Of a stretch of DNA of 64,000 bases, positions 57,082 to 59,465 are shown piece after piece. Within the stretch, counting starts at the first letter, position 1, and every line of letters starts with the position of its first letter. A program made the translations under genes and the position numbers. Source of the DNA: a plasmid; sequence record NZ_LR134454.1; one strand, written 5' to 3'. The notes below the pieces were generated by a model. It saw nothing but the letters and a program-made list of their open reading frames with translations. It did no database searches and was not told the DNA's origin.

Positions 57082-57092
57082 CGCGAACAGCA

Positions 57093-57132
57093 CTCGGGCC
57101 CGGCACCGTCGAACGACGGTGCCGGGCCCGAG
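57093..57132. terminator. bidirectional stem-loop CTCGGGCCCGGCACCGTCG-AA-CGACGGTGCCGGGCCCGAG
   Basis: Perfect 19-bp stem between the convergent pntB and NAD(P)H-binding genes. Confidence 0.6.
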
Positions 57133-57138
57133 TCGTCT

Positions 57139-57814: not shown

Positions 57815-57855
57815 TGCGGTGGATTCTTGCCGCTCAGCGGGCACTATCCACCGCA
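57815..57855. repeat. 41-bp palindrome B2: TGCGGTGGAT-TCTTGCCGCTCAGCGGGCACT-ATCCACCGCA
   Basis: Lies 22 nt downstream of the DUF559-2 stop. The loop is itself palindromic (CCGCT-C-AGCGG). Confidence 0.8.
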
Positions 57856-57877
57856 CTGCTGCCGCCCGCGAGCGCGC

Positions 57878-58768
57878 TCACGCGGCGGCGGCGTTCACCG
57901 CGGTCAGGACATCCGTGATCACGGCCTCGCCGTCGCCGTCGAGGCGGTGCCACCCGAAGCGCAACACCCGCCACCCGGCGAGAGTCAACCGGTTCTGCTT
58001 CCCGGCGTCGTTCGCGGCGCGGTCGGCCGTGCGGTGAAAGGCCCATCCGTCGATCTCCACGGCGACCCGCTGCTCGGGGAAGGCGAAGTCGATCGCGTAG
58101 ACGCCGAACGGGAACTGCGCGCACCACCCGGTGACGTGATGCGACTCGAGGAGCGACTGGAATCGACGCTCGGCTTCCGACTCCGTATCGCCGGCGACGA
58201 CGTCGAGCAGGCGCCGCGCCTCAGCCATCCCATGCCGGCCGGCGTTGCGGGTCAGCGCGGCGGTGAGCCCGTCGATCGTGACGATCCCCTCCTGCAGCGC
58301 GCGGTCGAGGTGGGCGCTGTTCGTCGACGCCGCCTCCAGGGCGGTCAGCGGCGCCGTCGTCACGGTGAGACCGCGGACCACTTCCAGGTCTGCAGGGAGG
58401 AGATCGCGCCGGTGCAGTTCCAAGGAGTACGGCACGGTGGGCGACCGCTTGTTCTGGCGCGGGACTGTGACGGACACCGAGTCCGGCGGTGACTCCACGA
58501 TCCCGTGCCACCACGCCGCCGCCGGCCCGTCGACCGCGCCGTCCGTGGCTCCCACGGCGGCCCGCATTCTCGCCTCCGCGGTGAAGGTGTGCGTCGCCGA
58601 GAGATACACGCCGCTGCTGAGCTGGATCCACAGTTTGTCGCGGACGCGCCTCGCTACGGCGGATGAGCTCATCCCGAGCTTCAGCGCCGCGCCACGCGTG
58701 ATGACACCGTCGTGGTCCGCGAAATGCTCCGCGACCAGCCTCGCCACCGTCGATGTCCCCATATCCAT
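57878..58768 (-). CDS. DUF559 (Vsr-like nuclease fold) protein with AbiEi-type N-terminal domain, paralogue 2
   Basis: C-terminal DUF559 (YAIDFAFPEQRVAVEIDGWAFHRTADRAANDAGKQNRLTLAGWRVLRF). Start at MDMGTSTVARL. Confidence 0.7.
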   Translation of the reverse strand: MDMGTSTVARLVAEHFADHDGVITRGAALKLGMSSSAVARRVRDKLWIQLSSGVYLSATHTFTAEARMRAAVGATDGAVDGPAAAWWHGIVESPPDSVSVTVPRQNKRSPTVPYSLELHRRDLLPADLEVVRGLTVTTAPLTALEAASTNSAHLDRALQEGIVTIDGLTAALTRNAGRHGMAEARRLLDVVAGDTESEAERRFQSLLESHHVTGWCAQFPFGVYAIDFAFPEQRVAVEIDGWAFHRTADRAANDAGKQNRLTLAGWRVLRFGWHRLDGDGEAVITDVLTAVNAAAA

Positions 58769-58809
58769 TGGACGCACCGGCTCCGGCGGCGGTTCCCCGT
58801 GCCCGCGGG

Positions 58810-58850
58810 TGCGGTGGATATTGCCCGCTGAGCGGTGAGAATCCACCGCA
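58810..58850. repeat. 41-bp palindrome B1: TGCGGTGGAT-ATTGCCCGCTGAGCGGTGAGA-ATCCACCGCA
   Basis: Arms identical to B2. Loop is the inverted version of the B2 loop (17/21). Lies 42 nt upstream of the DUF559-2 start and 3 nt after the lysE stop. Confidence 0.8.
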
Positions 58851-58853
58851 TAC

Positions 58854-59465
58854 TCACCCGCCGAGGGGCATCGTCGCCAGCCGCGCGGCGAGGACGAGGA
58901 GCAGGAGCCCGATCGCGAGGTTGATCGCCCGCCACACGCCCGGCCGGCCGAGCACGCCGGACAGGCGGCGGGCGCCGAAACCGAGCAGGCAGAACCAGGC
59001 GACACTGGCGACGACGGCGCCGAGGGCGAACCACCAGCGGTCGGCGCCGTAGCGCGTGGACGCGGAGCCGAGCAACAGCACGGTGTCCAGGTAGACGTGC
59101 GGGTTCAGCCAGGTCAGCACCAACACCCCGGTCACGACAGCCGCGACCGAGGCGGCGCCGTCACCGCCCGCGACGAGCCCCTCGGAACGACGCGCCGACC
59201 ACAGCGACCGCAGGCCGTAGCCCACCAGCACCACGGCGCCGGCCCACTTCACCACCTCCATGAGCAGCGGCCGGCCCGAGACCGCGGCGCCGAGCCCCGC
59301 GACGCCGGCGAGGATGAGCGCGACGTCCGAGGCGATGCACACCGCCACCACCGCGCCGAGCCCGCGGCCGCGCACGCCCACCTGCAGCACGTAGGCGTTC
59401 TGGGCGCCGATCGCCACGATCAGCGAGAGCCCGAGGCCGAGGCCGGCGAGGAGTGCGGAGGTCAT
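58854..59465 (-). CDS. lysE: LysE/ArgO family amino-acid exporter
   Basis: 203 aa, 5-6 TM LysE fold (GAQNAYVLQVG). Divergent from the LysR gene. Confidence 0.85.
   Translation of the reverse strand: MTSALLAGLGLGLSLIVAIGAQNAYVLQVGVRGRGLGAVVAVCIASDVALILAGVAGLGAAVSGRPLLMEVVKWAGAVVLVGYGLRSLWSARRSEGLVAGGDGAASVAAVVTGVLVLTWLNPHVYLDTVLLLGSASTRYGADRWWFALGAVVASVAWFCLLGFGARRLSGVLGRPGVWRAINLAIGLLLLVLAARLATMPLGG

What the first reader, a model, noticed from the sequence alone, without database searches (positions are those of the whole stretch)
57815..58855. Second DUF559 cassette with its own cognate palindrome pair, inserted 3 nt after the lysE stop
A divergent DUF559/AbiEi paralogue (57878-58768, minus strand) is flanked by 41-bp palindromes B1 (58810-58850) and B2 (57815-57855). 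Their 10-bp arms are identical (TGCGGTGGAT / ATCCACCGCA), and the loops are inverted copies of each other (17/21) and internally palindromic. The palindromes are unrelated in sequence to pair A at 7004/7955, so each cassette carries a private hairpin. The element lies between lysE and an NAD(P)H-binding gene. Recurrence of the architecture with non-homologous hairpins argues against coincidence and for an element-specific nuclease-hairpin relationship.
Basis: seen in the sequence. Interest (0 to 1): 0.75.

Follow-up and report, generated by a model that had tools for sequence, protein, structure and literature searches.

The report
Nuclease gene bracketed by twin palindromes
A small gene for a DNA-binding nuclease sits between two copies of its own 41-bp palindrome, an arrangement found in most of this gene family across actinobacteria; the same palindromes also occur alone at gene ends, which suggests where unexplained mycobacterial gene-end palindromes (probably the 'TRIT' motif) come from.

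Summary
Two 41-nt palindromes (57815-57855, 58810-58850) have identical 10-bp arms and match 38/41 as inverted copies. They bracket a 296-aa gene encoding a complete AbiEi-like DNA-binding module fused to a Vsr/DUF559 nuclease.

The arrangement is family-wide. In 57 of 76 homologous loci (Tsukamurella, Mycobacterium, Rhodococcus, Pseudonocardia and others) the gene lies between two matching palindromes. These are direct in 33 loci, inverted in 17 and ambiguous in 7.

T. pulmonis has one solo palindrome between lysE and the NAD(P)H-binding gene. T. hominis has that palindrome twice, around an inverted cassette. T. paurometabola has neither.

The hairpins are not wholly private. In Mycobacterium the same kind of palindrome is dispersed as solo copies at gene ends and fits the published description of TRIT.

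Best reading (inferred, about 0.45): the protein is a dimeric nuclease whose long pseudo-palindromic site is the flanking palindrome. Cutting and copy-repair would then insert, homogenise, flip, invert or delete the cassette. I found no paper describing this. It resembles REP/RAYT and Vsr-like homing endonucleases but fails defining features of both.

The parts
58810..58850 (.). Upstream palindrome (B1; 'U' in gene orientation). It starts 3 nt after the lysE stop codon and ends 13 nt before the -35-like hexamer.
58791..58796 (-). GGAACC, the -35-like hexamer of an ECF-sigma-type promoter motif inside the cassette.
   Evidence: Sequence. The motif GGAACN-N14-19-CGT[CT] occurs in 63/80 homologous loci, against 0.8% of background windows.
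58771..58774 (-). CGTC, the -10-like element, 16 nt after GGAACC. It lies inside the 22-nt block GGTGCGTCCAATGGRTATGGGG that cassettes A and B share.
57878..58768 (-). Gene for a 296-aa AbiEi-like (wHTH plus C-terminal domain) / Vsr-DUF559 nuclease fusion. A leaderless start at the second ATG (58762) is likely.
   Evidence: Pfam; PADLOC AbiEi; PDB sequence hits 3hrl, 3r3p, 6y8q; AlphaFold pLDDT 93.9 with fold hits 6y8q, 3r3p, 3hrl, 1cw0
57815..57855 (.). Downstream palindrome (B2; 'D'). It starts 22 nt after the gene's stop codon and is the reverse complement of B1 at 38/41 positions.
7004..7067 (.). Cassette A upstream palindrome (64 nt).
7103..7954 (+). Cassette A gene, a divergent DUF559 paralogue (26% identical to B). 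It has the same promoter geometry: GGATCC 7075-7080, CGTC 7097-7100, ATG at 7103 and 7109.
7955..8018 (.). Cassette A downstream palindrome, abutting the stop codon.

Best explanation
**What it is.** Cassette B belongs to a large actinobacterial family of roughly 1-kb single-gene units. Each unit is: palindrome, own ECF-type promoter with a near-leaderless start, a gene for an AbiEi-like DNA binder fused to a Vsr/DUF559 nuclease, then a second copy of the same palindrome. The palindromes are gene-end dyad-symmetric elements that also exist alone.

**Proposed mechanism (inferred).**
- The protein acts as a dimer, and its long (40-65 bp) pseudo-palindromic recognition site is the flanking palindrome.
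- The fast-evolving wHTH modules read the variable arms. The conserved nuclease domains act at the conserved centre (GCTSAGC in the B-type family). This mirrors its structural relative I-Bth0305I, a homodimer with a ~60-bp footprint and a central 14-bp pseudopalindrome.
- A break in a solo palindrome, repaired from a palindrome-gene-palindrome allele, would copy the gene between two copies of the site.
- Breaks in the gene's own flanks, repaired from the other copy in either register, would keep the two copies identical, flip them, invert the cassette, or delete it to leave a solo palindrome.

**Shown:** the architecture, its recurrence, solo copies, the allelic series, concerted evolution of the two copies, and the protein fold.

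**Inferred:** binding, cleavage and homing.
For: **Recurrence.** 57/76 homologous loci have matching flanking palindromes, against control maxima of 13-13.5. 40 of 48 strong palindromes in these loci lie within 150 nt of the gene.

**The two copies evolve together.**
- Several loci carry perfect direct repeats even though the palindrome itself is imperfect: 43 nt (L037), 54 nt (L079), 47 nt (L101) and 44 nt (L013).
- Inner-stem identity between the two copies averages 0.89, against 0.50 +/- 0.16 between unrelated copies.
- Among orthologous loci the arms change by compensatory substitution.
- Relative orientation is direct in 33 loci, inverted in 17 and ambiguous in 7.

**Allelic series at the lysE site.** No palindrome (T. 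paurometabola); a solo palindrome (T. pulmonis); palindrome-gene-palindrome in forward orientation (window, T. ocularis) or reverse orientation (T. hominis, T. pseudospumae, T. spumae).

**The same series occurs at the Mycobacterium X-purB site**.

**The palindrome follows the gene, not the flanks.** The T. hominis flanking proteins are 96.5-100% identical to the window's, but its cassette is 77% identical and its palindrome about 63%.

**Protein.** A full AbiEi fold over 199 aligned columns, plus a nuclease domain closest to the I-Bth0305I catalytic domain (TM 0.80) and to 3hrl. D227, E238 and H245 are invariant across 31 homologues.

**Precedent.** The I-Bth0305I properties are taken from PMC3239194.

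**Decay and inversion.** Most copies in one freshwater Mycobacterium population are truncated, as expected for a selfish gene. 'DUF559 domain-containing protein' is 14-fold enriched among predicted programmed-inversion targets in PMC9881135.
Against: - There is no biochemical evidence that the protein binds or cuts the palindromes.
- Intact copies of the presumed target flank the gene. Classical homing endonuclease genes destroy their site on insertion.
- No near-identical copies were found at different sites, and there were no tblastn hits on plasmids (E <= 1e-10) or phages (E <= 1e-5). Recent mobility is therefore not shown, and many loci look vertically inherited.
- Clean empty alleles at X-purB carry no palindrome, so insertion does not always need a pre-existing solo copy.
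- Cassette A and some other loci lack the GCTSAGC centre.
- 19/76 loci have no detectable pair.
- The N-terminal domains are only modestly more divergent than the nuclease domain (38-40% versus 47% mean identity).
Confidence: 0.45

Rival explanations
1. REP/RAYT-like system. The nuclease is the enzyme that makes, spreads or maintains the dispersed gene-end palindromes. The solo copies are its products, and the gene is simply flanked by two of them, as RAYT genes are flanked by REPs.
For: - In Mycobacterium-like metagenome contigs, 122 palindromes with the same outer arms were found. Ten are next to a DUF559 gene and at least 42 are certainly solo.
- 109 of the 122 lie at the ends of long ORFs.
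- The family shows conserved arms, covarying inner stems and a conserved centre.
- Every DUF559-adjacent copy with enough flanking sequence has a partner.
Against: - The enzyme is a PD-(D/E)XK nuclease, not an HUH transposase, and no strand-transfer chemistry is known for this fold.
- Each solo copy has its own inner stem, whereas the two flanking copies of a cassette share theirs. The flanks are therefore duplicates of each other rather than two independent family members.
- In about 150 kb of Tsukamurella sequence the only solo copy found is at the lysE site.
- Many divergent paralogues per genome, each with its own palindrome, fit one-enzyme-one-repeat-family poorly.
Confidence: 0.2
2. Regulatory architecture. 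The AbiEi-like module is an autorepressor. The upstream palindrome, next to the -35, is its operator. The downstream copy is a second operator for looping and/or the gene's terminator. The palindromes co-vary with the protein because binding specificity co-evolves.
For: - AbiEi antitoxins are known autoregulators that bind inverted repeats (established knowledge of AbiE).
- The fold matches 6y8q.
- The upstream palindrome ends 7-13 nt before the -35-like hexamer.
- The downstream palindrome abuts or overlaps the stop codon.
Against: - Selection for binding does not explain perfect 43-54-nt identity at positions that break the symmetry.
- It does not explain solo copies at unrelated gene ends, or the none / solo / pair allelic series.
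- It does not explain whole-cassette inversion relative to conserved flanks.
- It gives no role to a conserved nuclease active site.
- It is compatible with the main explanation as an additional function.
Confidence: 0.15
3. Target-site duplication. A gene-only element inserts by staggered cuts at the two edges of a resident terminator hairpin, and fill-in duplicates the whole hairpin. This is the reading implied by the first reader.
For: - Solo palindrome in T. pulmonis versus a perfect 44-nt direct duplication in T. hominis.
- 33 loci have direct pairs.
- In Mycobacterium both the upstream gene and the DUF559 ORF end inside the palindrome in the same register (...S-A-R-stop).
Against: - 17 pairs, including the window's own, are inverted.
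- Palindromes at the same orthologous site differ as much as the genes do, while the flanks are 86-99% identical.
- Empty X-purB alleles have no hairpin to duplicate.
- No integrase-type activity is known for this protein.
Confidence: 0.15
4. Coincidence. The two hairpins are independent terminators of neighbouring genes.
For: Hairpins are common at actinobacterial gene ends. An ordinary one sits at 57092-57133.
Against: - 38/41 identity between the two copies, with zero matches in 100 shuffles.
- The same arrangement, with different sequences, in 57/76 loci.
Confidence: 0.01

Closest known systems
REP elements with their RAYT genes ('REPtrons')
   Same: A nuclease-type gene is flanked by two copies of a short palindromic repeat. 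That repeat also occurs as many solo copies at gene ends, and the repeat co-varies with the gene.
   Different: RAYTs are HUH/Y1 single-strand transposases of Proteobacteria. This protein is a wHTH plus PD-(D/E)XK (Vsr-like) nuclease of Actinobacteria. The flanking copies here share private inner stems and can be direct or inverted. Dispersal of solo copies was seen only for the Mycobacterium type.
I-Bth0305I / 'EDxHD' Vsr-like homing endonucleases (PMC3239194)
   Same: It is the closest solved nuclease fold (TM 0.80). It is a multidomain homodimer with a ~60-bp footprint and a central pseudopalindrome, which matches palindromes of 41-65 bp with a conserved centre. Presence/absence alleles and decaying copies are also seen here.
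   Different: I-Bth0305I lives in a phage group I intron, and its site is destroyed by the insertion. Here the gene is free-standing and chromosomal, and intact copies of the presumed site flank it. The N-terminal domains are unrelated (AbiEi-like here).
AbiEi antitoxin of the type IV AbiE toxin-antitoxin / abortive-infection system
   Same: The N-terminal ~200 residues match AbiEi in sequence and fold. AbiEi binds inverted repeats at its own promoter.
   Different: There is no AbiEii nucleotidyltransferase partner gene. A nuclease domain is fused instead. The palindromes lie on both sides of the gene.
TRIT, 'Tuberculosis Rho-independent terminator' motif (Gardner et al. 2011, PMC3152330)
   Same: The Mycobacterium-type flanking palindromes are a conserved palindromic family at gene termini. 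They often start inside the coding sequence, have a narrow positional distribution and occur in many copies.
   Different: TRIT was described as a terminator restricted to Mycobacterium, with no associated protein. Its terminator role was later not supported. The window's Tsukamurella palindromes have different arms. Identity with TRIT could not be checked base by base because no sequence is in the accessible text and it is not in Rfam.
pdif modules of Acinetobacter plasmids, and solo LTRs
   Same: pdif modules are gene modules bounded by paired short dyad-symmetric sites and found in either orientation. Solo copies here could be left by recombination between the two flanking copies, as solo LTRs are.
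   Different: pdif sites are uniform 28-bp XerC/D sites used by a host recombinase. Here the sites differ between cassettes and the cassette encodes its own DNA-binding nuclease. This comparison rests on recalled knowledge and was not tested.

Membership tests
DUF559 / Vsr-like PD-(D/E)XK nuclease | Pfam PF04480 match above the gathering score | tested here: met
   43.2 bits versus 20.6 for B; 23.9 bits for A. A profile of 31 homologues hits 3hrl at E = 1.7e-12.
DUF559 / Vsr-like PD-(D/E)XK nuclease | Vsr-like fold with conserved acidic and His residues in the core | tested here: met
   Model pLDDT 93.9. Fold hits: 3r3p TM 0.80, 3hrl 0.77, plus 1cw0. D227, E238 and H245 are invariant in 31 homologues. 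Catalysis itself was not testable.
AbiEi antitoxin (type IV AbiE system) | N-terminal wHTH (AbiEi_4) plus the AbiEi C-terminal domain | tested here: met
   PF13338 at 32.8 bits versus 25. PADLOC AbiEi models down to 3.4e-18. Foldseek hit to 6y8q over 199 columns, E = 2e-6.
AbiEi antitoxin (type IV AbiE system) | Adjacent AbiEii nucleotidyltransferase toxin gene | tested here: not met
   The neighbours are lysE and an NAD(P)H-binding gene. Gene tables for 10 relatives show no such partner.
Homing endonuclease gene (Vsr-like EDxHD family) | Presence/absence polymorphism at a fixed site, with precise boundaries | tested here: met
   lysE site and X-purB site.
Homing endonuclease gene (Vsr-like EDxHD family) | Enzyme cleaves the empty allele, and insertion disrupts the site | not testable with these tools
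   Cleavage is untested. Structurally, intact palindromes remain on both sides, which is unlike classical homing.
Homing endonuclease gene (Vsr-like EDxHD family) | Residence in a self-splicing intron or intein, or in a phage genome | tested here: not met
   The gene is free-standing and intergenic in the chromosome. No tblastn hit in 50,697 phage records.
REP/RAYT (REPtron) | Gene flanked by two copies of a palindromic repeat that is dispersed in the genome | tested here: inconclusive
   Met for the Mycobacterium type in metagenome contigs. For Tsukamurella only one solo copy was found and none elsewhere in the window. No whole genome could be scanned.
REP/RAYT (REPtron) | HUH / Y1 transposase | tested here: not met
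   Pfam shows only AbiEi_4, DUF559 and MTES_1575.
TRIT motif | Conserved palindromic motif at gene termini, often starting inside the CDS, in many copies, in Mycobacterium | tested here: inconclusive
   The described features match the Mycobacterium-type palindromes. No Rfam model matched and the published text gives no sequence. The window's own palindromes come from Tsukamurella and have different arms.
Insertion sequence / transposon | Terminal inverted repeats, a short target-site duplication outside them, and multiple near-identical copies | tested here: not met
   Inverted ends are present in the window. However, there is no short duplication outside them, 33 loci have direct ends, no near-identical copies occur at different sites, and there is no transposase domain.

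The most novel reading that the evidence does not exclude
AbiEi-DUF559 nucleases are the missing protein partner of TRIT-like gene-end palindromes across Mycobacteriales. They would be a PD-(D/E)XK-driven counterpart of the REP/RAYT system that creates, copies and homogenises these palindromes. On this reading the hundreds of solo palindromes in mycobacterial genomes, including M. tuberculosis, are footprints or targets of these cassettes rather than terminators.
Probability: 0.22. Interest if true: 0.88.

Novelty: new variant of a known kind. Interest (0 to 1): 0.77.

Why it matters
AbiEi-DUF559 proteins are among the commonest uncharacterised proteins of actinobacteria. The search found 13,161 representatives at 50% identity, and no function is known for them. 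TRIT is a strongly conserved M. tuberculosis motif whose proposed terminator role has not held up.

Both puzzles become directly testable if each nuclease gene is tied to a cognate palindrome that also exists alone. The obvious first experiment is one purified protein, two oligonucleotides and a cleavage assay.

If the link holds, it would add a new enzyme class to the short list of systems that spread palindromic repeats. It could also supply programmable long-site nucleases, and it would explain local gene-order inversions and indel hot spots at actinobacterial gene ends.

Tried and rejected
**Searches that found nothing**
- Rfam at a permissive threshold on the region, and at gathering threshold on 8 related loci.
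- tblastn of the protein against plasmids and phages.
- Nine literature searches (DUF559, Vsr-like, AbiEi, RAYT, TRIT and others). No paper describes palindrome-bracketed DUF559 genes. The only trace is one table row in PMC9881135.
- Other copies of the B or A palindromes, or of any GCTSAGC-centred palindrome, in the window and about 90 kb of Tsukamurella loci. Only the cassette copies were found.
- A short target-site duplication outside the palindromes at the lysE and X-purB junctions.
- Integron-like arrays of other palindrome-bracketed genes next to cassettes, in L019 and L022.

**Leads that did not resolve**
- L005 has an identical LysE and first looked like an empty site. It carries an unrelated 205-nt filler with two other small hairpins, so it is not a clean empty site.
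- I considered a simple in-situ inversion between the outer arms to explain the opposite orientations. In L048 versus L077 the adjoining DNA differs, and in the window versus L013 the short linkers differ, so inversion alone is not enough.
- The mismatched-locus control was inflated by orthologous loci. I replaced it with displaced-window and shuffle controls.
- The TRIT sequence could not be obtained because no supplement is held.
- The exact sigma factor for the GGAAC...CGTC motif was not identified.
Full report
**1. The observation**

The pattern TGCGGTGGAT-N21-ATCCACCGCA occurs only there in the window, and no shuffle of the window produced a match. Read as inverted copies they agree at 38/41 positions (loops 18/21, not 17/21). 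Read as direct copies they agree at only 32/41. Both fold as hairpins.

B1 ends 3 nt after the lysE stop codon, and B2 starts 22 nt after the stop of the enclosed gene. Cassette A (palindromes 7004-7067 and 7955-8018, gene 7103-7954) is equally real, and its palindromes are unrelated to B's. These are the only two DUF559 genes in the window.

**2. The protein**

- The 296-aa product carries AbiEi_4 and DUF559 above Pfam's thresholds.
- A profile of 31 homologues hits the DUF559 structure 3hrl (1.7e-12) and the catalytic domain of the homing endonuclease I-Bth0305I, 3r3p (3.9e-7). Its N-terminus hits AbiEi, 6y8q.
- A confident model (pLDDT 93.9) superposes on the whole AbiEi antitoxin over 199 columns. 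Its last ~100 residues superpose on 3r3p (TM 0.80), 3hrl and Vsr.
- It is therefore a complete AbiEi-type DNA binder fused to a Vsr-like nuclease. No AbiEii partner gene is nearby.
- D227, E238 and H245 are invariant in the family.
- The family is large and diverse: 13,161 representatives at 50% identity with E <= 1e-3.

**3. Family-wide architecture**

I fetched 80 homologous loci, one genome per species, and compared 160 nt upstream of the gene with 160 nt around and after its stop codon.

- 57 of 76 usable loci have a matching element on each side, with score above 14.
- The maximum was 13.5 for windows displaced by 1.2 kb and 13.0 for shuffles.
- The genera include Tsukamurella, Mycobacterium, Mycolicibacterium, Rhodococcus, Antrihabitans, Gordonia-related and Pseudonocardia.
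- 40 of the 48 strongest palindromes in these loci lie within 150 nt of the gene, which is about 5% of the DNA.

The elements share a design:
- genus-typical outer arms, for example GCGATTTCGGCG...CGCCGAAATCGC in Mycobacterium, TGATCGCC...GGCGATCA in Pseudonocardia, and TGYGGTSGAT...ATCSACCRCA at the Tsukamurella lysE site;
- variable inner stems that change by compensatory substitution;
- often the centre GCTSAGC.

The upstream copy usually starts right at the stop codon of the preceding gene. The downstream copy abuts or overlaps the stop codon of the DUF559 gene.

**4. Promoter**

Between the upstream palindrome and the start codon, 63 of 80 loci carry GGAACN-N14-19-CGT[CT]. Only 0.8% of background windows do. 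The start codon follows 8-9 nt after CGTC.

This accounts for the 22-nt block GGTGCGTCCAATGGRTATGGGG shared by cassettes A and B, although their proteins are only 26% identical. GGAAC is the -35 consensus of mycobacterial ECF sigma factors such as sigma-H. I did not identify the factor involved. The cassette therefore carries its own, probably stress-responsive, promoter and a nearly leaderless mRNA.

**5. The lysE site in other Tsukamurella**

The window comes from FNSA01000003.1. The cassette and both hairpins are conserved in close relatives with an identical LysE.

| Species (locus) | State at the lysE site | Key numbers |
|---|---|---|
| T. ocularis (L011) | Same cassette, same orientation | 97% aa |
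| T. hominis (L013) | Cassette in the opposite orientation, with a different palindrome present as a perfect 44-nt direct repeat | Flanking proteins 96.5-100% identical to the window's; cassette 77% |
| T. pseudospumae, T. spumae (L012, L014) | Opposite orientation, a third palindrome variant | Cassette 75% and 70% |
| T. pulmonis (L240-L244) | No gene; a single palindrome 6 nt after the lysE stop | 39/41 identical to both T. hominis copies; its 40 nt align to both |
| T. paurometabola DSM 20162 (L245) | Neither gene nor palindrome | 44-nt spacer |

The variable segment runs from the lysE stop codon to 7 nt beyond the distal palindrome.

The window's palindrome is only about 63% like the T. 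pulmonis/T. hominis one, while the flanks are 86-99% identical. The palindrome follows the gene, not the site.

**6. A second site**

About twenty Mycobacterium loci are syntenic. The cassette sits between an Rv0779c-like membrane-protein gene ('X') and purB. Alleles of X from metagenomes show several states:

- X and purB overlapping, with no palindrome (L093-L095).
- A degenerate solo palindrome (L236, L238).
- Palindrome-gene-palindrome. In L101 this is a 984-nt insert with identical 47-nt direct copies.
- Other genes at the same junction: two methyltransferases, a glycosyltransferase, or a P450.

Empty and occupied alleles co-occur in one metagenome (L095 and L102). No short target duplication is present. 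In one population most copies of the gene are truncated, 258 aa instead of 286.

**7. Solo palindromes**

- Of the 122 palindromes, 10 lie next to a DUF559 gene, and each has a partner copy when the flank allows.
- 42 are certainly solo, with at least 1.1 kb of DUF559-free sequence on both sides.
- 70 are near contig ends.
- 109 lie at the end of a long ORF, and 56 lie between convergent ORFs. Offsets to the stop codon are narrow and often fall inside the coding sequence.
- About half have GCTSAGC at the centre, with C and G equally frequent.

These properties match the published description of TRIT: 147 palindromic copies in M. tuberculosis, positioned around -8 from stop codons, and restricted to Mycobacterium. 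TRIT's terminator role was not borne out in vitro or by Term-seq. I could not compare sequences directly, so this identification is an inference.

**8. Concerted evolution, flipping and inversion**

- The two copies around a gene share their inner stems: identity 0.69-1.00, mean 0.89. Unrelated copies share 0.50 +/- 0.16.
- Several pairs are perfect over 43-54 nt although the palindrome itself is imperfect. The copies are therefore copied from each other, not merely selected for symmetry.
- Their relative orientation is direct in 33 loci, inverted in 17 and ambiguous in 7. It differs among orthologous loci.
- Whole cassettes are inverted relative to conserved flanks in several pairs: window versus L013; L047 or L087 versus L064; L048 versus L077; and L028 or L065 versus L054 or L073.
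- This agrees with the 14-fold enrichment of 'DUF559 domain-containing protein' among predicted programmed-inversion targets.

**9. Mechanism**

The simplest reading that covers all of this is as follows. The encoded protein recognises the palindrome as a dimer, with arms read by the wHTH modules and the centre by the nuclease, as I-Bth0305I does on its ~60-bp site. Breaks at palindromes are then repaired by copying.

- A broken solo copy repaired from an occupied allele acquires the gene between two copies.
- A broken flank repaired from the other flank, in either register, keeps the pair identical or flips it.
- Recombination between the flanks inverts or deletes the gene and can leave a solo copy.

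Binding and cleavage are inferred, not shown. The rivals are a REP/RAYT-like dispersal enzyme, an autoregulatory operator pair, and duplication of a resident hairpin on insertion. Each explains part of the data and is weighed in its own section. Coincidence is excluded.

**10. Novelty and limits**

I found no description of this architecture in the searchable literature. It works like a REPtron or a homing endonuclease gene, but it fails defining features of both: it has no HUH transposase, no intron or phage residence, and its presumed site is not destroyed.

The main limits are these. No whole genome could be scanned for solo copies of the window's own palindromes. Recent mobility is not demonstrated: there are no identical copies elsewhere and no copies on plasmids or phages. 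Nineteen of 76 loci lack a detectable pair.

Noticed in passing
window 58771-58796 (-) and 7075-7100 (+); homologous loci L011-L090: A conserved ECF-sigma-type promoter motif, GGAAC(C)-N16-18-CGTC, lies 8-9 nt before the start codon, giving a near-leaderless mRNA. It is present in 63/80 family loci against 0.8% of background windows. The sigma factor and the inducing signal are unknown.
   Followed up: partly
L005 4613-4820 (metagenome scaffold with LysE identical to the window's): Instead of the cassette, the lysE / NAD(P)H-gene spacer holds an unrelated 205-nt filler. It contains two related small hairpins (CATGCGTGGCACGCATG and CATGCGTCGCACGCATG) about 55 nt apart. This could be a gene-less remnant of another cassette type.
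   Followed up: partly
L096, L228-L231, L232-L235 (Mycobacterium X-purB junction): The junction that holds the DUF559 cassette holds other genes in other lineages: two methyltransferases, a GT2 glycosyltransferase, or a P450. The convergent gene ends are a general insertion hot spot.
   Followed up: partly
L098-L107: In one freshwater Mycobacterium population most copies of the cassette gene are truncated (258 aa versus 286), and one was not called at all. The flanking 47-nt palindromes nevertheless stay identical.
   Followed up: no
L093 3095-3130 (empty X-purB allele): The overlapping 3' ends of the two convergent genes themselves form a 10-bp-stem palindrome (CCCGGGTGCG ... CGCGCCCGGG) containing a T:G mismatch. 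In occupied alleles the cassette sits between its two arms. Folding z = -1.6, so this may be chance.
   Followed up: partly
L003 4690-4790 (CP119372.1): The upstream palindrome and leader are followed by a run of N and then by unrelated PTS genes instead of the cassette gene and the NAD(P)H gene. This is either an assembly gap or a rearrangement breakpoint at the cassette.
   Followed up: no
L016, L023, L071 ('Acidobacteriaceae bacterium BOG_194' MAG): These contigs carry Tsukamurella-like synteny (lysR-lysE-DUF559, LysE 60% identical) and high G+C. The bin is probably contaminated or misassigned.
   Followed up: no
L019 vs L020, L022 vs L068, L029 vs L037/L079/L080: DNA immediately outside the downstream palindrome differs by 0.8-2.4-kb indels between related species. 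The cassette borders seem prone to further insertions or deletions.
   Followed up: partly
window 57092-57133: An ordinary 42-nt perfect-stem hairpin lies just after the pntB stop. It is unrelated to the cassette palindromes and is conserved in relatives, so it is a normal terminator-like element.
   Followed up: no
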